Shown: positions 7,227 to 60,665, counted from the stretch's first letter. The stretch: DNA of 64,000 nucleotides from an uncultured Gammaproteobacteria bacterium (GCA_964352335.1 CAYGRO010000004.1:42970-106969); one strand, 5' to 3'. Notes: generated by a model not told the origin, from the letters alone. Program-made: numbers and translations.

Positions 7227-7324
7227 TTTCCACATATAAAATTTTCTTCACGATAAGGAGTGTGCAATAATAGAGTTGTGTCACAGTCGACACTTCAATA
7301 TAAACCCGAACATGGAGAAATGAT

Positions 7325-8002
7325 ATGTATCCTGAAGAGGAAGTATCAGTTAGTCAGTCTCCTGCTCGGGAGATTGCAGAAAACAAGCCGACCACTGGTC
7401 GCACGAGTCGTGAACTTTTTAAGATCGAGGATCAGCTTCGGTCGGTCTATGACTCGCACCTTAAGCCCTTACTGTTTTTGGAGCCGCAAGTTGTGCGCAA
7501 TGCGCTGGCTCGCAATGGGGTCTTTCTTAGGGATGACCCCGAAGAGGCTCTTCCATTTAGCCACTATGGTTACTATGCCGCAGAAGGCGTTGACCTACCT
7601 ATGTGGTCACATGGTGACAAGCAGTATGACCAGGTTTTGGAGTGCCCTCGACTACTAATCGCTAGCAGGATTCCCTCACAGAAGGAATTTCCTTTTTGGG
7701 GGGCAGCGAAGACGGCAAGTGATCTGGGAAACAAAGAAGGCGTAGCAGAGTTTTTTCATCAAGGTGGCTCCATGCTCTTGGTGACATTAGCTGCATCAGG
7801 TGAGCTCATCTGGGATTGGTCAGACATTGACTCTATTCCCGGTGGTAGTTTCCATGGGCGTCTCGTGCCTGTGAAGTACAGCATTTACGAGTTGTTTCAT
7901 CCTCAATACGGGATTATCACTCGTTTACTCAATACTGTGCGTGGAGTTCAAGACCCACCCACAGAGAAGATCAGTGCTCGCTTCGAGCGATTTTTCTTCT
8001 AA
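7325..8002 (+). CDS. Hypothetical protein in a GC-rich island
   Basis: 225-aa ORF with a GGAG SD 8 nt upstream. Its GC content is clearly above the flanks. No domain recognised. Confidence 0.45.
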   Translation: MYPEEEVSVSQSPAREIAENKPTTGRTSRELFKIEDQLRSVYDSHLKPLLFLEPQVVRNALARNGVFLRDDPEEALPFSHYGYYAAEGVDLPMWSHGDKQYDQVLECPRLLIASRIPSQKEFPFWGAAKTASDLGNKEGVAEFFHQGGSMLLVTLAASGELIWDWSDIDSIPGGSFHGRLVPVKYSIYELFHPQYGIITRLLNTVRGVQDPPTEKISARFERFFF

Positions 8003-8085
8003 CCGACAGTCACGCTTCCAAGCTAACACTCGTCGGTTATACCTTATATAAAAATTTTACCAGCCAAATTATTGTTTGAGGTATA

Positions 8086-8128: not shown

Positions 8129-9121
8129 TTAGAGTTGTTTTAAAATTGCTTCTACTTTTTCTACGGATTCTACTTGCATCAATTCAGATCTCGCTTTACT
8201 TGCATTGGGAAATCCTTTGATATACCAACCTAAATGTTTTCTCAATTCCATCATTCCATGATTTCCTTTTTGTTCAAACATCATTTTTGTATGGTTAATC
8301 ACAGTAGACTTTACATACTCCCAATCTGGTTCTTTGTATGTTCCTGTTTGAATATAGTCTTTCATTTGTTGCATAAGCCAGGGTTTTCCCATAACTCCTC
8401 GCCCAATACCAACACCGTCAACACCTGTTTGTTCTAAGACTTCTTTTGCTCGTTCTGGAGTTGTAATTCCACCATTAACTAAAACAATTCGTTCACCAAC
8501 AATTTCTTTAACGCGTTTAATTTGTTCAATATCTAAATCTCCAATAAAACCTTGTTCATAGGTTCGGCCATGAATCATAACCGCTTTAAAATCTAAATCT
8601 TGAATTCTTTCCATCATTTGTACAGCTGTCATTTTTTCCACATCATAAGCATCTCGCCGTTCTTGGTCAGCAAGTTTCATATTAATCCCAGCTCGAATTT
8701 TAATCGACGTAGGGATTGTTTTTGCACCTTCAATTGTTGCTTTTACAATGTCATAAACACGATCCAAATCCGTCATCAGCTTCACCCCAGATCCATGTTT
8801 GACCACACGTTTAGAAGGGCAACCAAAGTTAATATCAACACCATCTGCCCCCATTTGTTCAACAACACTTGCACCATTTTTAAATAATTCAGGGTCTTTC
8901 CCAAAGATTTGGCAAACATAGGGACGTTGTTCTTCGGTAAAATCCATTTGTTTTTTCATTTTTTTAAAGGCATGGAAAATACCGTCAACAGAAACAAATT
9001 CAGAATACACAACATCCGCACCATTCAATTTAAGAACGCTACGAAAAGCTTTATCCGTTACACCATCCATTGGAGCAACAGCAAAAATAGGTTTTGGCAA
9101 TTTTTCCCAAAAGTTATTCAT
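8129..9121 (-). CDS. dus: tRNA-dihydrouridine synthase
   Basis: Motif FAVAPMDGVTDKAFR and a TIM-barrel FMN region. Confidence 0.85.
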   Translation of the reverse strand: MNNFWEKLPKPIFAVAPMDGVTDKAFRSVLKLNGADVVYSEFVSVDGIFHAFKKMKKQMDFTEEQRPYVCQIFGKDPELFKNGASVVEQMGADGVDINFGCPSKRVVKHGSGVKLMTDLDRVYDIVKATIEGAKTIPTSIKIRAGINMKLADQERRDAYDVEKMTAVQMMERIQDLDFKAVMIHGRTYEQGFIGDLDIEQIKRVKEIVGERIVLVNGGITTPERAKEVLEQTGVDGVGIGRGVMGKPWLMQQMKDYIQTGTYKEPDWEYVKSTVINHTKMMFEQKGNHGMMELRKHLGWYIKGFPNASKARSELMQVESVEKVEAILKQL

Positions 9122-9164
9122 ATCAAAAGAATATAACAGAAAAACAGCTGTTTTTCAAGCTTGG

Positions 9165-14141: not shown

Positions 14142-14483
14142 AATAACTGTGTCGATTAGTAAAATGTGAACCTATAGTACCAGAAAAGAATTTCTTTGGC
14201 AAGGGGGTGCTGTCAAAAATAGATGACAACAATACCTCCGTAAATACAGGGCTAGATAGACTTATACACTTTTCGCTTTGACGATAACCTGTTTTCGCAT
14301 TATTCTATGAACAGTATGAAAACAACGCAAATTACAACATGGATGAAGCAATGCCTCAATTTCGCAATTGTGGTCTTTGTCATTTCAGGTTGTAGCGTTG
14401 GGTAAATACGAAAACATAACAAGTTTCGAAACACTCTCAATGCTAGGCCTAAAAACCTGGCGTTTGTCGTTTTAGGGGAAATC

Positions 14484-14756
14484 GTGAGTAATCAAAACAA
14501 CTCTGTTTGTGAAGTTTCTGCAGAGTCAGCGGAATCTGCAGAAGTCGTCGTCAAGCCTGAGGATTACTGGACTCGTCGTTCAGAAATTCCTCCTCAGTAT
14601 CTCGCCGGTGCTCGTCGTGCAGCCCTCCTTGCGTCAGCTCGCGTTCAGTCGGATCGGCTGCATGCGGCTTGCGTGGTCGAGGCTAGGCAGGCACATCAGT
14701 CGGGGCGAATTCCCGGCATACCAAGCGAAGACCAGTTGGTCCCACGCTCCTACTAG
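14484..14756 (+). CDS. Hypothetical ORF in a GC-rich island (14480-14860); it could instead be a structured RNA
   Basis: GC-rich segment carrying two overlapping ORFs of 90 and 115 aa. No homology recognised. Confidence 0.25.
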   Translation: MSNQNNSVCEVSAESAESAEVVVKPEDYWTRRSEIPPQYLAGARRAALLASARVQSDRLHAACVVEARQAHQSGRIPGIPSEDQLVPRSY

Positions 14757-14867
14757 TCTAAGGAGCAGGGAACAAGACGGAGATGGGGCTAGGAAGCATT
14801 TTGCAACCTGGTTCCGTCTCCGTTTTCATTTTATCGCAAAAAACGATACTCTATAAAAAGGAATGAT

Positions 14868-20774: not shown

Positions 20775-20942
20775 TTTTTTGCTAATATTAGATGAATATT
20801 TTTATATCACACCAGAAGCTATTGACAAAAAAGTAATAATATGGTATTGTTATTTTTGTTGATGAGAGATTTCTGAGATCGTAAGCCTCGATTTAAGAAA
20901 TCTCTCTTCAACAGCTGGTCAAACCAGCAGAAAGGAGTTGCC

Positions 20943-21401
20943 ATGCGCAACTTCATCATCCTCTCGATCTTCGTCTTCCTCACCGTCTTCACCGGCTGCG
21001 CCGCGACCCCGTTCGCAGAGCTCTCGCCCAGCGAGAAGCTGGAAATGGTCTACGGGAACTCGGGCGTCTCGTACCAGATGAAGGGGAGCGTCGTCACCCT
21101 CGCGCAGAACACCAACACGCTCGAGGTCATCAACAACCGCTTCGACTCCAACCCCGTGATCACGTTCTCCTGCGAGAGCGTGGGCGAGGAGCGGGTCAAC
21201 TCCAAGCTGGTGGGCGGGATCGTCGGTGGCGGCATCTACCACCACAAGGTGGAGATCCCCAAGCGCTTCTACAATAAGGAGGGGGTCATCTTGAGGATCG
21301 CCACTCCCATCTCGACCACCGAGAACAACGACGGCAGCTCGACCACGACTGAGTCGGTCGAGATCTTCGACCTGAAGGGAGCGCTCCTCAACCGGGAGTA
21401 G
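20943..21401 (+). CDS. Putative lipoprotein in a roughly 62% GC island
   Basis: A signal peptide ending in FTGC, a GGAG SD, and strong GC3 bias unlike its neighbours. Confidence 0.6.
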   Translation: MRNFIILSIFVFLTVFTGCAATPFAELSPSEKLEMVYGNSGVSYQMKGSVVTLAQNTNTLEVINNRFDSNPVITFSCESVGEERVNSKLVGGIVGGGIYHHKVEIPKRFYNKEGVILRIATPISTTENNDGSSTTTESVEIFDLKGALLNRE

Positions 21402-21480
21402 CTCCTAACAACCCTCACCGAGGGCGAAAAAACTCTTGCCTAGCAAGAAGACTTTCGTCGCTGGGTGAGGGTTTTTTCGT
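21400..21480. terminator. Long GC hairpin terminator(s) between convergent genes
   Basis: The stem aaccctcacc...ggtgagggtt followed by a T run. Confidence 0.6.
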
Positions 21481-21689: not shown

Positions 21690-21860
21690 GTAGTGTATCA
21701 CAATACCCCCACCAGACCACCTCCTTTGCCCTAGGGTCTTGAGCTCTGGGTCGAAAGACAAGGGGAGGGAATAAAGTTAATCAACATTTTCCCTCCTCAC
21801 CCGGCTAAGCTTGCCCGCCTTTGGAGGAGGGAGGAGCCTGCCTGTCGGCAGACAGGGTCT
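21690..21860. repeat. Composite GC-rich palindromic element
   Basis: The stem ccaccagaccacctcc...ggtctggtggagg and the pair cctcctcac.../...ggaggagggagg. Confidence 0.4.
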
Positions 21861-21936
21861 GGTGGAGGGGCGAAAAACAAAAAAGCCCTTTTCAGGACTT
21901 ATTTTGCAGTTTTGTAAATTTACAAGTTTGCAGTTT

Positions 21937-40939: not shown

Positions 40940-41719
40940 ATGGTCATTGTAAAAAATAAAGAGCAAATTGATGGGATTAGAAAAAGTTGCAAATTACTTG
41001 CAGAGGTTTTAGCTATGGTGGGTAAGCAAGTAAGACCAGGAGTAAGCCCAAAAGAATTAGATGTATTGGCAGAAAAATTGATTCGAGAAGCAGGAGGGAA
41101 ACCTGCTTTTAAAGGGTATAGAACAATGCCAGGTATTAAAGCATTTCCTTCTACTATTTGTGCTTCTGTTAATGATATTGTCGTTCATGGTTTTGGTGAT
41201 TCCGATGAGCCGTTAAAAGAAGGGGATATAATCGGTATTGATTGTGGGATAAATCTAAATGAGTATTATTCTGATATGGCAAAAACTTTTGCTGTTGGAA
41301 AAATTGATCCAGAAATCCAAAAAATGATGGACGTAACAGAAAAATCACTTTATAAGGGGATTGAGCAAATGAAACCAGGAGTTTCCATTCGAGCTATTTC
41401 AGCTGCAATTGAAAATCATATACAACCACATGGATATGGAATCATTAGAGGTTTTGCTGGACATGGAGTTGGGTTACAAGTTCATGAAGACCCGTGGATT
41501 CCAAATTATGTAGATGATCACTTAGAAGATAGTTTGTCTTTGGTAATGCAACCTGGTCATGTATTTGCGATTGAGCCAATGGTGACAAATGGGGGAGAAG
41601 ATGTAGAAATTCTTAGTGATGGGTGGTCAGTACAAACGGATGATCATTCTATTAGCGCTCATTTTGAGCATACTGTACTTGTTACAGAAGATGGGTATGA
41701 AATCTTAACATTATTGTGA
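40940..41719 (+). CDS. map: Methionine aminopeptidase type I
   Basis: Metal-ligand motifs including IVVHGFGDSD. Confidence 0.9.
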   Translation: MVIVKNKEQIDGIRKSCKLLAEVLAMVGKQVRPGVSPKELDVLAEKLIREAGGKPAFKGYRTMPGIKAFPSTICASVNDIVVHGFGDSDEPLKEGDIIGIDCGINLNEYYSDMAKTFAVGKIDPEIQKMMDVTEKSLYKGIEQMKPGVSIRAISAAIENHIQPHGYGIIRGFAGHGVGLQVHEDPWIPNYVDDHLEDSLSLVMQPGHVFAIEPMVTNGGEDVEILSDGWSVQTDDHSISAHFEHTVLVTEDGYEILTLL

Positions 41720-41810
41720 TGCGAATCTGCGAATACATTCGAATCTACAAATCATTACATATATTTGTAGATTAGTGTTCATTCGTATATTAGCATCACA
41801 CATTCGTATA
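41720..41810. repeat. MITE-like palindromic repeat, copy A
   Basis: gattcgaatctacaaat...atttgtagatt...agcatcacacattcgta. Confidence 0.6.
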
Positions 41811-47481: not shown

Positions 47482-47590
47482 TAATGATTCGAATCTACAA
47501 ATAGATCCGAATCCGCGAATGAATACTAATCTACGAATATTGTTAAAGAGGATATTTGCAGATTAGCATCACCATTCGTATTAAAATAAG
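47479..47590. repeat. MITE-like palindromic repeat, copy B
   Basis: atgattcgaatctacaaat...aatactaatctacgaatat...tatttgcagattagcatcaccattcgtattaaaataa. Confidence 0.65.
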
Positions 47591-50567: not shown

Positions 50568-50600
50568 GAGTCGTTAAAAAATGTGAAAGCCTCCCTTTCC

Positions 50601-51032
50601 TTAGTGGTTGGGGAGGCTTTGTGATTTCGAAGTGGCCGGGGCTACTTCAGTGGTGTCGATGGGCTTGAAGTCTGGTCCAAGCAGGCGACGATTAATGCGA
50701 TTGCCTTTTTGGTCCGTCGTGAGCTCGATGTAGTTTTCACCAACCTTACGATAGTGGATCAAGTAGTTTGAGTTACTCATTCCGGTGGGGCCCGTTTGTG
50801 AGGGGCTTGGGTCAAGTAGGTTGACCGGTTCCGGAGGAGCTACCGTGAGCAGCTTAGTCACATCAATTGGTGAGAAGAGCGGTTGGGGCTCATCTTGCTT
50901 GTCCTGCACCGTAGCAGGTACTGATGGTTCATTCTGCAGATTCTGGAGATATTGGATCCCGCCACAGAGGCAAATGTCAAAGATGAGCAAGCAAATGCCC
51001 AAGAGGCACAAAGACTTATCTTCTTTATTCAT
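50601..51032 (-). CDS. Membrane-anchored hypothetical protein in a GC-rich island, paralog 1
   Basis: N-terminal TM helix and the C-terminal motif VGENYIELTTDQKGNRINRR. 143 aa. Confidence 0.5.
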   Translation of the reverse strand: MNKEDKSLCLLGICLLIFDICLCGGIQYLQNLQNEPSVPATVQDKQDEPQPLFSPIDVTKLLTVAPPEPVNLLDPSPSQTGPTGMSNSNYLIHYRKVGENYIELTTDQKGNRINRRLLGPDFKPIDTTEVAPATSKSQSLPNH

Positions 51033-51460
51033 CTGGTCTTTTCCTTTTCTGTGGTAACGAACTCTCTGCGGATCTCGTTACCATTTTGGTCTTGGTAGAT
51101 TTTGAAGGTGTTTTTTCCCACCTGCACGGTAATCACGAATTGAGCTGTTGAGAATGATCCAGCTCTCGAGTGACCCGACTCTTGTGCGGCTACACCGCTA
51201 CTAAGCCCAACAATATTACTGTTGAGGTTGACGGTGATGATGGTGGGGATGGGGCTGGCAATTATTTGCTGCGCCATTGGCGCCTTCTTCTTGGTTCGCC
51301 GTTCCGTATCGAGGTTCGTCATGACCAAGAAGAAAGGATAGTAGATGGTGAGCAAAACGATACCCACTTTGATCCAGTACTTTTCTTCTTCCCAGTTTTC
51401 GTTCTTCACTTTGTTTTTACTTTCGTTTAGTGTTTTTCTACAAAGTTCATCATACAGCAT
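51029..51460 (-). CDS. Membrane-anchored hypothetical protein, paralog 2 (start moved to MLYDEL)
   Basis: The C-terminal motif VGKNTFKIYQDQNGNEIRR matches paralog 1. With the internal start the length is also 143 aa. The two genes overlap by 4 nt. Confidence 0.45.
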   Translation of the reverse strand: MLYDELCRKTLNESKNKVKNENWEEEKYWIKVGIVLLTIYYPFFLVMTNLDTERRTKKKAPMAQQIIASPIPTIITVNLNSNIVGLSSGVAAQESGHSRAGSFSTAQFVITVQVGKNTFKIYQDQNGNEIRREFVTTEKEKTR

Positions 51461-51469
51461 TATTCTTGC

Positions 51470-51900
51470 ACAGTGAATTCTACAGAAAAAGGAACGGCCG
51501 CGACACCAAAGGGGAGGTGTCGCGGCCGCTTGCCCGAGGGCATAAGGGGATATGGAGAGCATCGGAGGACGCTCATTGTGGGAGTCCCTAGTTCAAATGA
51601 TTGTTCCACAGCGTTCTTCCTGGTTTCGCTATGGGTCATCTGCACGGGGCCAAGATGGTATACGGGGCTTCACCAACGAGGTTTAGCACGGTCTACGATC
51701 TTATTGGCTGTTCGGGACATGTGTAGGTGGCTGCGTCCCCCAAGAATCATTGGAAAGTGGGGGAGAGGGGGACGCAGCCTTAGTTTTGTAGCTGTCTCAG
51801 AGCAAGGAATCGATGGGGATGGACGGCTAAGCTAATTCGTTTTCGCTTTGCCTACATCAAACTCCACAGTGGTATTCAACGACTTTCCGGTGTTTTTAGC
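51470..51900. other. GC-rich non-coding segment with strong hairpins; candidate structured RNA or leader
   Basis: Hairpins ggccgcgacacc...ggtgtcgcggccgc and gctgcgtccccc...gggggacgcagcc, plus a long-range pairing gctgtctcagagc/gctctgagacaac. The overlapping ORFs have junk-like composition. Confidence 0.25.
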
Positions 51901-52029: not shown

Positions 52030-52413
52030 ATGTCTTATCAAACTAGTCAAAAACAAGCGATTTTACAGCATGTGATGCTTTCTAAAAGTCATCCAACAGC
52101 TGATGAAGTCTTTAAAGCAGTCAAATCTGACCTGCCTAGTATTGGTTTTGCCACGGTTTATAGAAATTTAGCGACTTTAGCGAAAGAAGGAAAAATCAAA
52201 GAAGTACAATTTATTGATAAAAAGAAAAGATACGAAGGAAATACCCATCAACATCAACATTTTATTTGTACAAAATGTGAACGTATTGTTGATATGGAAT
52301 TATCTGAATTACTCAATATCAAAGACGCTGTTACAAAAATGCAATGTCATGAGGTGACAGAATATAATCTCGAATTAATTGGTATTTGCGCTGTTTGTAC
52401 AACTGACCACTAA
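52030..52413 (+). CDS. fur: Fur-family metalloregulator (Fur/PerR-like)
   Basis: A winged-helix N-terminus, an HQHQH motif and a C-terminal CxxC pair. Confidence 0.75.
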   Translation: MSYQTSQKQAILQHVMLSKSHPTADEVFKAVKSDLPSIGFATVYRNLATLAKEGKIKEVQFIDKKKRYEGNTHQHQHFICTKCERIVDMELSELLNIKDAVTKMQCHEVTEYNLELIGICAVCTTDH

Positions 52414-52532
52414 CCACTGACGACTGACCACTGACGACTGACCACTGACCACTGACCAATGACAGCTGACTACTGACAATAAACAGTTTAATGTATAGTC
52501 AGTAGTTAATTGTCAGTTGTTCGTTGTAGAAT
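52414..52532. repeat. k-mer-iterated inverted-repeat spacer (cactgac tandem 7-mers then gtcagt)
   Basis: ccactgacgactgaccactgacgactgaccactgaccactgaccaatgacagctgactactgac...gtcagtagttaattgtcagttg. Confidence 0.7.
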
Positions 52533-54842: not shown

Positions 54843-55427
54843 ATGCTATTTAAATCATTAAGACAAAAAATTATGGAAGACCATGATATGATGCATTTCT
54901 CTCCACGTTTGGTGGGAAATCCTGCTCCATTATGGAAAATGGACGGAGTTAAAAAAGAAGATTTTCACTCTCACTCACTAGAAGATTATAAAGGAAAATG
55001 GTTGGTAATGTTTTTTTACCCATTAGATTTTACCTTTGTTTGTCCAACAGAAATTAAAGGTTTTGATAAAGAAGTAGAAAAATTCCGAGAAATGAATGCA
55101 GAAGTTGTAGGTGTTTCTACAGATTCAGTTCATTCTCATAAAGCATGGATTGCTCGAGACTTTGGTGGAGAGCTCAATATCCCATTGCTTTCAGATATGA
55201 CAAAAAATGTTGCTTACGACTATGGAGTTCTTTTAGAAGATGAAGGAATTGCTTTACGAGGAACATTTATTATCGACCCAGAAGGAGTTGTAAAATACGC
55301 TGTTGTTTCTGACAATAATGTAGGACGTTCTGTTTCTGAAACTTTACGTGTTCTAAAAGCATTACAATCTGGTGACCTTTGTCCAATTGATTGGGAAGAA
55401 GGACAAGATACTTTAGGGAAGGCTTAA
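54843..55427 (+). CDS. Peroxiredoxin (AhpC/TSA family, Prx6-like)
   Basis: The peroxidatic FTFVCPTEI motif and C-terminal LCPIDW. Confidence 0.85.
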   Translation: MLFKSLRQKIMEDHDMMHFSPRLVGNPAPLWKMDGVKKEDFHSHSLEDYKGKWLVMFFYPLDFTFVCPTEIKGFDKEVEKFREMNAEVVGVSTDSVHSHKAWIARDFGGELNIPLLSDMTKNVAYDYGVLLEDEGIALRGTFIIDPEGVVKYAVVSDNNVGRSVSETLRVLKALQSGDLCPIDWEEGQDTLGKA

Positions 55428-55460
55428 ATCAATGGATCAATAAACAATGATCAATTAGCA

Positions 55461-55488
55461 AAAAGCGCTCGTTTGGGCGCTTTTTTGT
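55461..55488 (+). terminator. Terminator hairpin after prx; its 3' half is the left copy of a 19-bp direct repeat
   Basis: aaaagcgctcgtttgggcgctttttt. Confidence 0.6.
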
Positions 55489-55545
55489 GTTGACAAAAAA
55501 GAAAAAATATGCTATCATTTTCCCAGTCTTGTTCCTGGAGGATGT

Positions 55546-55794
55546 ATGACTCGACTGGCTATTAGCTACTATTGTGATGAGTTGGGCTCAGAGGCATTGG
55601 TTCGCTTGATCAAGCGATCCATGGATAGGCGCGAAGAGATTCGCGTTCATCTGGAAGGTCGTCTTCCTGTTATCTGTATTCCCACTCCGATGAACGGAGA
55701 TATATCACCTGACGGTAGCATCTTTTGGGTAAAAGCGCATGAGCGGTATTTCCTCTCTCGTGCATTGACCCAAGTCGACGTTTTTGTCGACTAG
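55546..55794 (+). CDS. Hypothetical 82-aa protein on a GC-rich insert
   Basis: A GGAGG SD is present. Its GC content is above the flanks. Confidence 0.4.
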   Translation: MTRLAISYYCDELGSEALVRLIKRSMDRREEIRVHLEGRLPVICIPTPMNGDISPDGSIFWVKAHERYFLSRALTQVDVFVD

Positions 55795-56013
55795 TCGCTC
55801 ATTTGAGCAATAGTTGTACTGAGCTAACCCTCAGAACGAATGGTCGACATTTGTCGGCAACAATACAAAGAGGTTAGATGCTTTGTATTTCCGCGTTTAA
55901 CGACGTATACAGGGAAACCTGTTTAACAAGTCTTGGCGGTCGGACTAAAGTGATCGCACTTCAAGCCAGAAATGGCTACTTGCAGACATTGCCTTGCGCC
56001 GTGTCTGCTTTTA

Positions 56014-56032
56014 CGTTTGGGCGCTTTTTTGT
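56014..56032 (+). repeat. Right copy of the 19-bp direct repeat cgtttgggcgcttttttgt
   Basis: Exact 19/19 match to 55470-55488. Confidence 0.7.
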
Positions 56033-56055: not shown

Positions 56056-56871
56056 ATGAAACCTATGTCAACAGAAAAAACGTGGGAACAATTTTATAAA
56101 AACAATGACGGGATCTATTCTTCGGGTCATTTTTCTGATAGGAAAGATATTGATGGGCAGATTTATAATAACTATCAAATAGCTTATCGAGAAGAATTAT
56201 TGAAGTATTCTGGAAAAGAATTAGCTGTTGAGCTTGGTTGTGGGAATAAACCAATTTTTGAAGTGCTGGGGCATTTTGACTCAGTTTACTATACGGATAT
56301 TTCAAAAGAAGCTTTGGTTCAAGCAAAAAAGGCATTTGAAGCATTGGATACGAGTAAACTAATAACAGATTCAGTCTATTTTGAAGAAATGAATGTAGAT
56401 TCTTTTTTACTTTTTGATAACGACTCTCTTGATCTCGTCTTTAATACAAGGGCACCACATAGAGATGAGACTTCGAAGGAATTGTATCGAACACTCAAAG
56501 ATGATGGAGTTTATGTTTATCAAACAATAGGGGAAGAAGATTTCAAAGATTTTAAGCTTTTGTTACAAGATGGTCGGTTTTATGATGATTATTTGAAACT
56601 AGGGAAAACAAGATTTCAGGTTGTAAAAGAATCACTTATCCAAGCTAGTTTTAATCAAGACAATATTGAGCTTATTTTTGATGATCGATATAAAAACTAC
56701 TTTGACTCAAAAGAAGAATTTAAAGAAAAACTTTGGTTATTAGTTGGTGACTTCAATTTTGATTCTCCTGAGCTTGATAAGGTTATCGATGAATATATTG
56801 ATTCACATACAAATGAAGAAGGGAAGATTTGGGTGGAGAATCATCGAATTGTTATTAAGGCTGTAAAATAA
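56056..56871 (+). CDS. Class I SAM-dependent methyltransferase
   Basis: The glycine-rich motif LGCGNKP. Confidence 0.55.
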   Translation: MKPMSTEKTWEQFYKNNDGIYSSGHFSDRKDIDGQIYNNYQIAYREELLKYSGKELAVELGCGNKPIFEVLGHFDSVYYTDISKEALVQAKKAFEALDTSKLITDSVYFEEMNVDSFLLFDNDSLDLVFNTRAPHRDETSKELYRTLKDDGVYVYQTIGEEDFKDFKLLLQDGRFYDDYLKLGKTRFQVVKESLIQASFNQDNIELIFDDRYKNYFDSKEEFKEKLWLLVGDFNFDSPELDKVIDEYIDSHTNEEGKIWVENHRIVIKAVK

Positions 56872-56947
56872 CCATGTCATTCCCGCGAAGGCGGGAATCT
56901 ATCTGGAATGATGAGATACCTGCCTCCGCAGGTATGACAGCTTAAAT

Positions 56948-57610: not shown

Positions 57611-57668
57611 GTTATCAACAATTGTTTGAAAAATGTAGAAATGTTAAAGTGTTTTCACTCGTCTCGTC

Positions 57669-58265
57669 GTGGGCATCGGCCCTCGGCGTTTTTCATTCCC
57701 GCAGTTAGATAAGGGGGGACAATTGACCGAATCGAATGACCGTATTTTGCCTGAGGAGTTCTACAAGCTTCTCATGCACTCCATAACCGAACAACTGGCA
57801 ATGCTCAAGATTTCTGTCGATGCGACAGAGGAAGACTTTGTTCGCCAGCTGCTCAGGATCATCACCTCACTCCATCAAGTTCGTCGCATGCTCACCCAGC
57901 ATGATCCGCGCTTGAAGGAGATGATTGGTCAGATCATCGAGGAAGATGACTACTCTGATCCTGAGCTCGAGACTCGGCGTGCGGAGCGTGATGAGTTGAG
58001 CCAAGACTTCCTCGACGACGTCGAGATTGACCCGACGGACTTCCGTCTGGCGGAGACGCTGGTGCTTCTCGGGCAGTCCACCGGCTCGCTTCCTCCTTTG
58101 GACACCATTGACTTGGTCCAAAAGTTCTCGCGAGAGGCACTTGGGATCGGGCTCACCGTGGCCAACCAGGCAGGGGAATGCGAAGAAGTTTTCGTTCATC
58201 GCATCGTCAGCGTCATCAACGGCGAGATGGCTAGAAGCAGTTCTGCCGTTAAGGCGCTCACGTAA
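57669..58265 (+). CDS. Hypothetical acidic protein in a GC-rich island
   Basis: GC-rich 198-aa ORF with a GC hairpin at its 3' end. Confidence 0.4.
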   Translation: MGIGPRRFSFPQLDKGGQLTESNDRILPEEFYKLLMHSITEQLAMLKISVDATEEDFVRQLLRIITSLHQVRRMLTQHDPRLKEMIGQIIEEDDYSDPELETRRAERDELSQDFLDDVEIDPTDFRLAETLVLLGQSTGSLPPLDTIDLVQKFSREALGIGLTVANQAGECEEVFVHRIVSVINGEMARSSSAVKALT

Positions 58266-58611
58266 GCAACCATCCCTCTCAGCTGGCACGCGCTGGCTGA
58301 GAGGGGAAACATTATTAGTTATCCACAGTTTGATTTGAAAGTAATCTGATTTCTTAAAAATTAGGCAATTTGGTCACGGCTATGAGTTTGTGTTAGAATG
58401 TAATCACTCACAAAGGATAACGTCTAGACCTTTCGTACCACAACATGTTGTGGTATTATAAACCCAGAGGTCACTATATCTAGCAAACTGGGTTTGACGA
58501 AAAACCAGATCGGACGAGACCCTCTCATTGATCTACATACAATCGAGAATACGTCCCGCGATGTGGTTTTTTGTATGGGAAAATTTAGTTTCTCCCAATT
58601 AATTGAGTTCT

Positions 58612-58735
58612 TCAACTGCGGTATGATTCGAATTTACGAATTAATACTAATCTACAAATATCATTATAAAGAGGGTTATTTGCAGATTCGAATGTATTCG
58701 TAAATTAGCATCACCATTTGCAATAAAATAAACAG
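58612..58735. repeat. MITE-like palindromic repeat, copy C
   Basis: atgattcgaatttacgaatt...aatctacaaatat...tatttgcagattcgaatgtattcgtaaattagcatcaccatttgcaataaaataa. Confidence 0.65.
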
Positions 58736-60552: not shown

Positions 60553-60665
60553 TTTGTTCTCAACATAATTTATCGAATCTACGAATTAAAACCAATCTAC
60601 AAATAAATCAATTCGTAATCCGTAGATTTGTCCTAATTCGTAGATTCGATACCTAACCACTTCAA
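60553..60665. repeat. MITE-like palindromic repeat, copy D
   Basis: atcgaatctacgaatt...aatctacaaat...cgtagatttg...cgtagattcgat. Confidence 0.55.

What the first reader, a model, noticed from the sequence alone, without database searches (positions are those of the whole stretch)
55470..56032. A 545-bp GC-rich insert flanked by a perfect 19-bp direct repeat that coincides with the prx terminator
cgtttgggcgcttttttgt occurs at 55470-55488 and again at 56014-56032. The first copy is the 3' arm and U-tract of the peroxiredoxin terminator. The segment between the copies is GC-rich against an AT-rich backbone. It carries an 82-aa ORF with a canonical GGAGG SD, whereas native genes here are largely SD-less. 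It also carries two similar palindromes, gtcgacgtttttgtcgac and gtcgacatttgtcggc. This looks like insertion of a small foreign cassette with duplication of the target, or integration at a terminator att site. No integrase or transposase is present.
Basis: seen in the sequence. Interest (0 to 1): 0.5.

Follow-up and report, generated by a model that had tools for sequence, protein, structure and literature searches.

The report
Small foreign gene unit splitting a terminator
A 525-base, strain-specific stretch of foreign-looking DNA carrying its own promoter, ribosome-binding site, a small orphan reading frame and an unusually dense run of hairpins sits inside the transcription terminator of a peroxiredoxin gene. 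It has duplicated 19 bases of that terminator; it is a real but modest case of gene gain at a variable spot, and the way it was inserted is unknown.

Summary
CGTTTGGGCGCTTTTTTGT occurs exactly twice in 64 kb, at 55470-55488 and 56014-56032. Copy 1 is the loop, 3' arm and U-tract of the prx terminator; copy 2 has no 5' arm.

The 525 bp between the copies (45-48% GC against 36%) is a self-contained unit:
- a near-consensus sigma-70 promoter with an extended -10
- a GGAGG ribosome-binding site, in a lineage whose own genes have none
- an 82-codon reading frame with no homologue anywhere
- the densest hairpin run in the window
- its own terminator

No relative carries it.
- One relative (L106) has a single terminator followed by the methyltransferase-upstream motif. 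This is an empty-site-like state that aligns with the window once the insert is removed.
- The nearest relative (L096/L097) shares the terminator and the first 7 inserted bases (GTTGACA), then carries a different GC-rich orphan gene.
- Others have prx next to udg, or other cargo.

So prx-udg is a gene-gain hotspot and the insert is recent. No transposase, integrase, terminal inverted repeats, integron core sites, phage or plasmid match were found. The insertion mechanism and the product (protein or RNA) remain inferred. Interest is moderate to low.

The parts
54873..55427 (+). Peroxiredoxin (AhpC/TSA) gene, the conserved left flank
   Evidence: Pfam AhpC-TSA, E=2e-40. The gene is called as 184 aa in the Logan assembly. 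Orthologues in relatives are 71-90% identical at the nucleotide level.
55458..55488 (+). Intact prx intrinsic terminator T1: 5' arm AAAAAGCGCTC, loop GTTT, 3' arm GGGCGCTTTTT, then U-tract
   Evidence: Folds at -15.2 kcal/mol, z = -3.6. The same terminator, with one extra T, is present in L096/L097. It is orthologous to the terminators of L098, L099 and L106.
55470..55488 (+). Direct repeat copy 1 (last base of the 5' arm, loop, 3' arm, U-tract, GT)
   Evidence: Exact 19-mer, 2 copies in the window, 0/100 shuffles.
55489..56013 (+). Strain-specific inserted segment (525 bp; 544 bp with one repeat copy)
   Evidence: Absent from all relatives. No similarity elsewhere in the window apart from the promoter. 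No phage or plasmid match.
55490..55518 (+). Sigma-70-type promoter: TTGACA, 17 nt, TATCAT, with TGn extended -10
   Evidence: 11 of 12 consensus matches plus TG, the best in the scanned region. One of only two such sites in 64 kb. It is 23/26 identical to the promoter of the GC-rich islet at 20822.
55537..55541 (+). GGAGG Shine-Dalgarno motif, 4 nt before the ATG
   Evidence: Read in the sequence. Native genes here and in relatives lack SD motifs. The leader, SD and AUG are unpaired in the centroid fold.
55546..55794 (+). 82-codon orphan reading frame; coding status uncertain
   Evidence: - Homology: it hits only itself in 5.8 billion clusters. In 1.8 billion representatives the only hits are short-motif matches to repeat proteins. 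There are no Pfam, PHROG, PADLOC, NCBIfam or PDB matches.
- Codon positions: GC1/2/3 = 0.55/0.40/0.49.
- Length: 82 codons or more arise in 17% of shuffles.
- Structure: AlphaFold pLDDT 46.
55602..56008 (+). Dense run of about 14 short hairpins. It spans the second half of the ORF and the 3' region and includes the two GTCGAC palindromes (55774-55791, 55843-55858).
   Evidence: 12 perfect hairpins against 3.1 +/- 1.5 in shuffles, 0 of 500 reaching 12. This is the highest density of any 494-nt stretch of the window. Fold z-scores are -3.3 for the ORF, -3.8 for the 3' part and -4.05 for the whole transcript. No Rfam family matches.
55982..56018 (+). The insert's own terminator-like hairpin GCAGACA...TGTCTGC followed by TTTTACGTTT; the U-tract runs into repeat copy 2
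   Evidence: Hairpin present in the MFE and centroid structures. The U-rich tail was read in the sequence.
56014..56032 (+). Direct repeat copy 2. It has no adjacent 5' arm and is followed by the conserved methyltransferase-upstream motif GAATTCATGTTTAAATGAA.
   Evidence: The downstream motif is shared with L098 and L106.
56056..56871 (+). Class I SAM methyltransferase gene, the right flank; AT-rich and itself accessory in the wider clade
   Evidence: Pfam Methyltransf_11/25. Present after prx in L098/L100/L101, absent in L003, L099 and the P0008 contig. Its homologues elsewhere sit in unrelated contexts.

Best explanation
The feature is a recently gained, self-contained transcription unit inserted into the intrinsic terminator of the peroxiredoxin gene.

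Shown:
- The ancestral arrangement was prx, one terminator, about 30 nt, then the methyltransferase gene (or udg).
- In this strain 525 bp of GC-richer DNA lies between the terminator's 5' arm and its loop.
- Nineteen bases (loop, 3' arm, U-tract, GT) are present on both sides.
- prx therefore keeps a complete terminator, and the downstream gene keeps its original upstream sequence.
- The insert has a near-consensus promoter with an extended -10, a GGAGG ribosome-binding site, an 82-codon orphan frame, a very hairpin-dense body and its own hairpin terminator.
- The site is a hotspot with different contents in different relatives.

Inferred:
- The 19-bp repeat is the footprint of the insertion. 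It could arise from fill-in of a staggered break in the hairpin, or from a crossover in a short shared core carried out by an enzyme encoded elsewhere. The insert has no mobility gene and no transposon ends.
- The unit is transcribed from its own promoter. It yields a small protein, a structured RNA of about 0.5 kb, or both.
- Read-through past its weak terminator could feed the methyltransferase and udg genes.
For: - Repeat and terminator anatomy.
- The segment is absent from all relatives.
- L106 has a single terminator followed by the methyltransferase-upstream motif. The window with the insert and one repeat removed aligns to it on both sides.
- The two copies are 19/19 identical while the terminator differs between lineages (15/19 against L098), which points to a recent event.
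- Foreign signals: promoter; SD against an SD-less native gene set here and in L003, L098 and L099; GC and GC3.
- Hotspot: five different contents between prx and udg in six lineages.
- Not an artefact: an independent assembly is 100% identical.
Against: - No known mechanism fits. There are no terminal inverted repeats, no recombinase in 64 kb and no second copy. 19 bp is longer than usual transposase duplications.
- The nearest relative shares the terminator plus the first 7 inserted bases, then has a different cargo. At least one further event (a swap), or a cassette family, is needed.
- L098 and L099 carry their own duplicated terminator arm without cargo.
- The empty-site relative is about 19% diverged, and its contig ends before the methyltransferase gene.
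- The exact empty junction was not found in metagenomes.
- Expression and product are untested. ORF length alone is not significant.
Confidence: 0.55

Rival explanations
1. The duplicated terminator arm is older than the cargo. Two copies of the arm bracket a replaceable slot downstream of prx. Contents are exchanged between strains by homologous recombination in the conserved flanks (a 'minimal mobile element' type hotspot). The two copies are kept identical by conversion or repeat-family turnover.
For: - L098 and L099 each have two copies of the terminator 3' arm, 111 and 105 bp apart, with no cargo. The copies are identical within a genome but differ between genomes at the same two positions.
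- Copy 2 sits at the same distance from the methyltransferase start in the window and in L098.
- The window and L096 share the left junction but not the cargo.
- No mobility genes are present.
Against: - In L098 and L099 the first copy lies inside a REP-like module of about 130 nt that also occurs upstream of RNR in L003. Both copies there have their own 5' arms, so that repeat is probably two repeat-element copies and not the same thing.
- L106 has a single terminator.
- In the window the repeat includes the loop and copy 2 has no 5' arm, which fits a fresh local duplication.
- A 19-bp tract is short for RecA-type conversion (own knowledge).
Confidence: 0.2
2. The insert is a small non-replicating cassette integrated by a site-specific recombinase encoded elsewhere in the genome. 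The 19-mer is the shared att core (attL/attR). GTTGACA is a conserved cassette end shared with the different cargo in L096/L097.
For: - A perfect 19-bp repeat is typical of att cores (own knowledge).
- The window and L096 cargoes start with the same 7 bases after the same terminator.
- 0.5-kb single-gene circles are used by integrons (own knowledge).
- The cargo differs between strains at one site.
Against: - No recombinase was found in 64 kb.
- Boundaries do not match the integron core GTTRRRY/RYYYAAC arrangement (sequence reading).
- The other five GC-rich islets have no flanking repeat of 10 bp or more that brackets the islet.
- The cassette and the 19-mer are found nowhere else.
Confidence: 0.15
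3. The cargo is a gene for a structured RNA of about 0.5 kb and not a protein gene (this rival concerns the product, not the insertion). The 82-codon frame would then be fortuitous.
For: - Hairpin density is the highest in the window, and five hairpins lie inside the frame.
- Whole-transcript z = -4.05.
- Three of five 4-nt loops are GNRA.
- An ORF of this length arises in 17% of shuffles.
- There is no protein homologue in 5.8 billion clusters.
Against: - No Rfam family matches even at E <= 10.
- GGAGG sits 4 nt before an AUG in an unpaired leader.
- The GC1 > GC3 > GC2 pattern resembles the other GC-rich ORFs.
- There is no homologue on which to test covariation.
Confidence: 0.4
4. Assembly artefact: a chimeric join at a shared 19-mer.
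For: The source is a metagenome-assembled genome, and composition changes abruptly at the junctions.
Against: - An independent k=31 Logan contig is 100% identical over 7415 bp across both junctions.
- 19 bp is shorter than the k-mers used.
- Such a join would need the foreign piece to carry the 19-mer at both ends.
Confidence: 0.02

Closest known systems
Phage 'morons' (independent promoter-gene-terminator units inserted between conserved genes; Hendrix and colleagues, own knowledge)
   Same: A single small gene with its own promoter and terminator, composition unlike its surroundings, lying between two conserved genes, present in one strain and absent in relatives.
   Different: It sits in a bacterial chromosome next to housekeeping genes and not in a prophage. 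It has no phage match. It is flanked by a 19-bp duplication.
Minimal mobile elements of Neisseria (Saunders & Snyder 2002, Microbiology 148:3756, as cited in PMC1538595): strain-specific cassettes between conserved genes, exchanged by homologous recombination
   Same: Conserved flanks (prx, udg) with different contents in different relatives, no mobility genes, and small repeat elements nearby.
   Different: A perfect duplication of the target terminator is not a feature of those elements. Transformation-driven exchange is untested here.
att-flanked elements without an integrase (cis-mobilisable elements of streptococcal ICEs; Xer-dependent IMEX and pdif modules; own knowledge)
   Same: Direct repeats at both ends and no recombinase inside.
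   Different: It is only 0.5 kb. The repeat does not look like a dif site, no cognate recombinase was seen, and no second element uses the same site in the data available.
Integron gene cassettes
   Same: The size (about 0.5 kb), a single orphan gene, and a hairpin-forming 3' end.
   Different: No GTTRRRY/RYYYAAC core pair at the boundaries, no integrase, no array; it carries its own promoter; and 19 bp are duplicated where an integron cassette has a 6-7 bp shared core.
Terminator-targeting group IIC introns (Robart, Seo & Zimmerly 2007, own knowledge) and hairpin-targeting IS200/IS605 or IS110 relatives
   Same: Insertion at or next to an intrinsic terminator hairpin, with a hairpin-rich body.
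   Different: No group II intron, HEARO or other RNA family matches even at E <= 10. There is no reverse transcriptase or transposase. Those elements do not duplicate 19 bp.

Membership tests
Insertion sequence / MITE | Terminal inverted repeats | tested here: not met
   No inverted repeat pairs the two ends. The ends read GTTGACAAAAAAG... and ...GTGTCTGCTTTTA.
Insertion sequence / MITE | Transposase gene (IS) or multiple copies in the genome (MITE) | tested here: not met
   No transposase domain in 37 ORFs. No second copy in 64 kb. The rest of the genome was not available.
Insertion sequence / MITE | Short target-site duplication of fixed length | tested here: inconclusive
   A duplication exists but is 19 bp. 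That is longer than most families, although IS1634-type elements make long ones (own knowledge).
Integrase-mediated integrative element (att-flanked) | Identical core sequence at both junctions | tested here: met
   19/19 identical.
Integrase-mediated integrative element (att-flanked) | Cognate tyrosine or serine recombinase | tested here: not met
   None in the insert or in the window. One acting in trans from elsewhere in the genome cannot be excluded.
Integrase-mediated integrative element (att-flanked) | Empty site with one core copy in relatives | tested here: inconclusive
   L106 has a single, diverged terminator followed by the same downstream motif. The exact empty junction was not found.
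Integron cassette | attC with RYYYAAC ... GTTRRRY core sites at the cassette boundary, and an integron integrase | tested here: not met
   The boundaries read GT|GTTGACA and GT|TTTTAAA. GTTTAAC occurs twice inside, but without a complementary partner at the end. No integrase was found.
Moron-like autonomous transcription unit | Own promoter, own terminator, composition unlike neighbours, absent in relatives | tested here: met
Moron-like autonomous transcription unit | Located in a phage or prophage genome | tested here: not met
   The neighbours are prx, methyltransferase, udg, RNR and iscS. There are no PHROG hits for the ORF.
Minimal mobile element / recombination hotspot | Conserved flanking genes with different intervening genes in different strains, and no mobility genes | tested here: met
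   Five different contents in six lineages. No mobility genes.
Minimal mobile element / recombination hotspot | Exchange by homologous recombination after DNA uptake | not testable with these tools
   This needs population data or an experiment.
Known structured RNA families (Rfam 15) | Covariance-model match | tested here: not met
   No hit at gathering thresholds in the whole window. Only chance-level hits on the terminator at E <= 10.

The most novel reading that the evidence does not exclude
The insert is one member of an undescribed class of recombinase-less, promoter-first mini-cassettes. Members would start with GTTGACA and integrate into the loop side of intrinsic terminator hairpins with a duplication of about 19 bp, mobilised by a hairpin-specific enzyme encoded elsewhere. 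This particular cargo would be a new hairpin-array RNA of about 0.5 kb and not a protein gene.
Probability: 0.1. Interest if true: 0.7.

Novelty: new variant of a known kind. Interest (0 to 1): 0.33.

Why it matters
If the insertion reading is right, this is a clean natural example of how a reduced, SD-less, AT-rich bacterium gains a single expression-ready foreign unit without any recognisable mobile element. The unit lands inside a terminator, so the upstream gene stays terminated and the downstream gene keeps its leader. The same window holds at least five more GC-richer, SD-bearing orphan islets, and the prx-udg gap holds different cargo in each relative. The lineage could therefore be a good system for studying gene gain at hotspots. 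On its own the locus does not open a new question. Its product and insertion mechanism are unknown, and there is only one copy in public data.

Tried and rejected
- Homology for the 82-aa frame: the word-indexed search of 5.8 billion clusters returned only itself. The full phmmer search of 1.8 billion representatives returned only short-motif hits summed over repeat proteins such as InlB B-repeat proteins, which I rejected as spurious. Pfam, PHROGs, PADLOC, NCBIfam and PDB gave nothing. tblastn against phages, plasmids and IMG/VR gave nothing.
- DNA of the insert against phages and plasmids: nothing.
- AlphaFold on the single sequence gave pLDDT 46, so I ran no fold search.
- Rfam: no family.
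- Empty-site junction in metagenomes: no hit. The 19-mer gave 13 unrelated contigs.
- Methyltransferase homologues sit in unrelated contexts and did not give closer relatives.
- Flanking repeats at the other five GC-rich islets: none of 10 bp or more that brackets an islet.
- Rejected readings, for lack of defining features: integron, group II intron, IS200/IS605-type, dif/Xer.
- Other islet ORFs and the L097 cargo against IMG/VR: nothing.
- A paper search for the run accession found nothing.

Full report
**1. The observation**

CGTTTGGGCGCTTTTTTGT occurs at 55470-55488 and 56014-56032. It occurs nowhere else in the 64-kb window, even with three mismatches, and none of 100 dinucleotide-preserving shuffles gave two matches. 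It is the longest direct repeat within 3 kb in the window.

Copy 1 is the last base of the 5' arm, the loop, the 3' arm and the U-tract of a strong hairpin 30 nt after the peroxiredoxin stop codon. The hairpin is AAAAAGCGCUC-GUUU-GGGCGCUUUUU, -15.2 kcal/mol. Copy 2 has no adjacent 5' arm. It is preceded by an unrelated hairpin (55982-56008) and TTTTA.

An independent Logan assembly of run ERR3534985 is 100% identical over 7415 bp across both junctions. I therefore rule out an assembly join at a 19-mer.

**2. What lies between the copies (55489-56013, 525 bp)**

- Promoter: TTGACA, 17 nt, TATCAT, with a TGn extended -10 at 55490-55518. It matches 11 of 12 consensus positions.
- Ribosome-binding site: GGAGG lies 4 nt before an ATG.
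- Reading frame: 82 codons, 55546-55794.
- Non-coding tail: about 220 nt, ending in a hairpin and a U-rich tract that runs into copy 2.
- Composition: GC is 48% in the ORF and 45% in the tail, against about 36% in the backbone. GC3 is 0.49 against 0.19-0.31 in the neighbours.
- Native genes: about 55 native ORFs have essentially no SD motif, and neither do the native genes of three relatives.

The frame is an orphan.
- It hits only itself among 5.8 billion protein clusters.
- A full phmmer scan of 1.8 billion representatives gave only short-motif hits summed over repeat proteins.
- No profile library, PDB, phage, plasmid or IMG/VR search matched.
- A frame of this length arises in 17% of shuffles, so length alone is not evidence of coding.
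- AlphaFold gave pLDDT 46.

- Twelve have perfect stems of 5 or more pairs. Shuffles give 3.1 +/- 1.5, and none of 500 reached 12.
- This is the most hairpin-dense 0.5 kb of the window.
- The native genes and other GC-rich islets tested are close to their shuffle expectation.
- Five hairpins lie inside the frame.
- Three of the five four-base loops are GNRA.
- The whole predicted transcript folds with z = -4.05, with the leader, SD and AUG unpaired in the centroid.
- No Rfam family matches.

Whether the product is a small protein, a structured RNA or both cannot be decided. I put it near even.

**3. Relatives**

The prx protein search and exact-protein look-ups gave six related lineages. Conserved synteny is fur, iscS, a ferredoxin-like gene, a desulfoferrodoxin-N-like gene, prx, [variable], udg, [variable], RNR.

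| Lineage | prx nt identity to window | What follows prx |
|---|---|---|
| L003 | 71.5% | udg directly |
| P0008 contig | not measured (no DNA; 84% protein identity) | udg directly |
| L098/L100/L101 | 84% | REP-like module, spacer, second terminator, methyltransferase, udg |
| L099 | 81% | same REP-like module, then a 450-aa AT-rich orphan, then udg |
| L106 | 81% | 45 nt, one terminator AAAGAGCCC-ATTTC-GGGCTCTTTTTT, then AATTCATGCTTAAATGAA |
| L096/L097 | 90% | same terminator (one extra T) and GTGTTGACA, then a different GC-rich orphan of 216 aa or more; contig ends |

- The motif after the L106 terminator precedes the methyltransferase gene in the window and in L098.
- The window with the insert and one repeat copy removed aligns to L106 on both sides of the terminator. 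It is a diverged one, and the contig ends before the methyltransferase gene.
- None of these relatives has the 525-bp segment.
- GTTGACA is not present after the terminator in L098 or L106, so it belongs to the inserted DNA in both the window and L096.

**4. Reading**

The simplest account is that DNA entered the ancestral single terminator between the 5' arm and the loop, and that 19 bp were duplicated. This leaves prx with an intact terminator. It leaves the downstream gene with its original leader behind copy 2. Perfect identity of the two copies argues for a recent event, because the terminator differs at 4 of 19 positions from that of L098.

The mechanism is not identified.
- There are no terminal inverted repeats.
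- No recombinase or transposase domain was found in 37 ORFs of the window.
- There is no second copy in the window.
- There are no integron core sites at the boundaries.
- No phage or plasmid relative was found.

Two facts complicate a one-step story.
- First, the window and L096 share the first seven inserted bases and nothing after them. Either one old insertion was followed by replacement of the cargo, or two cassettes share a common end.
- Second, L098 and L099 each have two copies of their own terminator 3' arm (14 nt, 111 and 105 bp apart). The copies are identical within a genome and differ between genomes at the same two positions. There the first copy lies inside a REP-like module of about 130 nt that also occurs upstream of RNR in L003, and both copies have their own 5' arms. 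I read that as two copies of a repeat family rather than an insertion footprint. It still shows that repeated terminator arms recur at this site.

**5. Context in the window**

- At least five more GC-richer islets lie in intergenic positions.
- They carry orphan ORFs, most with SD motifs.
- None is bracketed by a direct repeat of 10 bp or more.
- The promoter of the islet at 20822 is 23/26 identical to the one here. These are the only two such sites in 64 kb.
- A GC-rich orphan in L098 has the same kind of promoter and an AGGGAGG SD.
- The islet gene at 57669-58265 has a 45% identical, equally GC-rich homologue at the same position in L098. Such islets can therefore be old and retained.

**6. 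Comparison with known systems, and verdict**

It works like a phage moron (autonomous promoter-gene-terminator unit of foreign composition) placed at a minimal-mobile-element-type hotspot between conserved genes. It is not in a prophage, and neither kind is defined by a 19-bp duplication of a terminator half. It fails the defining tests for IS/MITE, integron cassette, integrase-bearing island, group II intron and every Rfam family.

I class it as a new variant of a known kind (a single-unit genomic islet at a hotspot). The open points are the hairpin-dense cargo and the shared GTTGACA end.

Noticed in passing
window 7250-8010; 14450-14830; 20820-21480 and 21690-21900; 50600-51900; 57660-58310: Five further GC-richer islets (47-61% GC, GC3 up to 0.95) sit in a 36% GC backbone. 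Each lies between housekeeping genes. They carry orphan ORFs with no Pfam, PHROG or PADLOC match, and most have SD motifs, while native genes have none. None is bracketed by a direct repeat of 10 bp or more.
   Followed up: partly
window 20822-20850 and 55490-55518: These are the only two sites in 64 kb matching TTGACA-N14-TGnTATnnT. They are 23/26 identical over the promoter, and both head GC-rich orphan units. A GC-rich orphan on the minus strand of L098 (about 9079-9140) has the same promoter type with an AGGGAGG SD.
   Followed up: partly
window 57669-58265 and L098 9219-9815: The 198-aa GC-rich orphan between udg and RNR has a 45% identical homologue of the same length, also GC-rich (56%), at the same position in a relative whose housekeeping genes are about 80% identical. 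It is a retained, fast-evolving GC-rich gene.
   Followed up: partly
L098 6541-6760; L099 4810-5020; L003 8010-8130: A REP-like module of about 130 nt (GGCGAATTTCTTCGTCAA ... long hairpin ... GGGCTTCTT ... CCTTGAACTTCATCCAGATCTGAAAA) lies downstream of prx in two relatives and upstream of RNR in a third. In L098 and L099 its hairpin 3' arm is repeated about 105-111 bp downstream. The two copies are identical within a genome and change together between genomes (TG against CA).
   Followed up: partly
window 56875-56940; L003 6650-6770 and 7638-7700: Two GC hairpins lie just upstream of udg. The first has the form ATTCCC-N8-GGGAAT and occurs only once in the window. Related hairpins flank udg in L003 as 17- and 19-nt direct repeats.
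   Followed up: partly
window 58624-58713, 41713-41804, 47504-47564, 60571-60651: A dispersed AT-rich repeat of about 90 nt, built around a 37-nt inverted repeat, is present at four intergenic places in the window.
   Followed up: no
window 58310-58586 (L098 9855-10125): The non-coding stretch upstream of the ribonucleotide reductase gene is 83% identical between lineages, more than the adjacent coding DNA. It has no Rfam match and may be a regulatory leader.
   Followed up: no
window 52399-52477: A tandem repeat with a 14-nt (7-nt sub-) period, ACCACTGAC..., lies in the gap between the fur-like gene and iscS.
   Followed up: no
window 51470-51900: A GC-rich (50-56%), ORF-poor stretch with long GC hairpins lies next to two minus-strand orphan ORFs. 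No Rfam family matched at E <= 1 apart from chance-level hits.
   Followed up: partly
window 56056-56871; L103, L104, L105: The methyltransferase downstream of the insert is itself accessory. It is absent between prx and udg in three lineages. Its 55-64% identical homologues elsewhere sit in unrelated neighbourhoods, one of them next to HTH, M78 peptidase and RhuM genes.
   Followed up: partly
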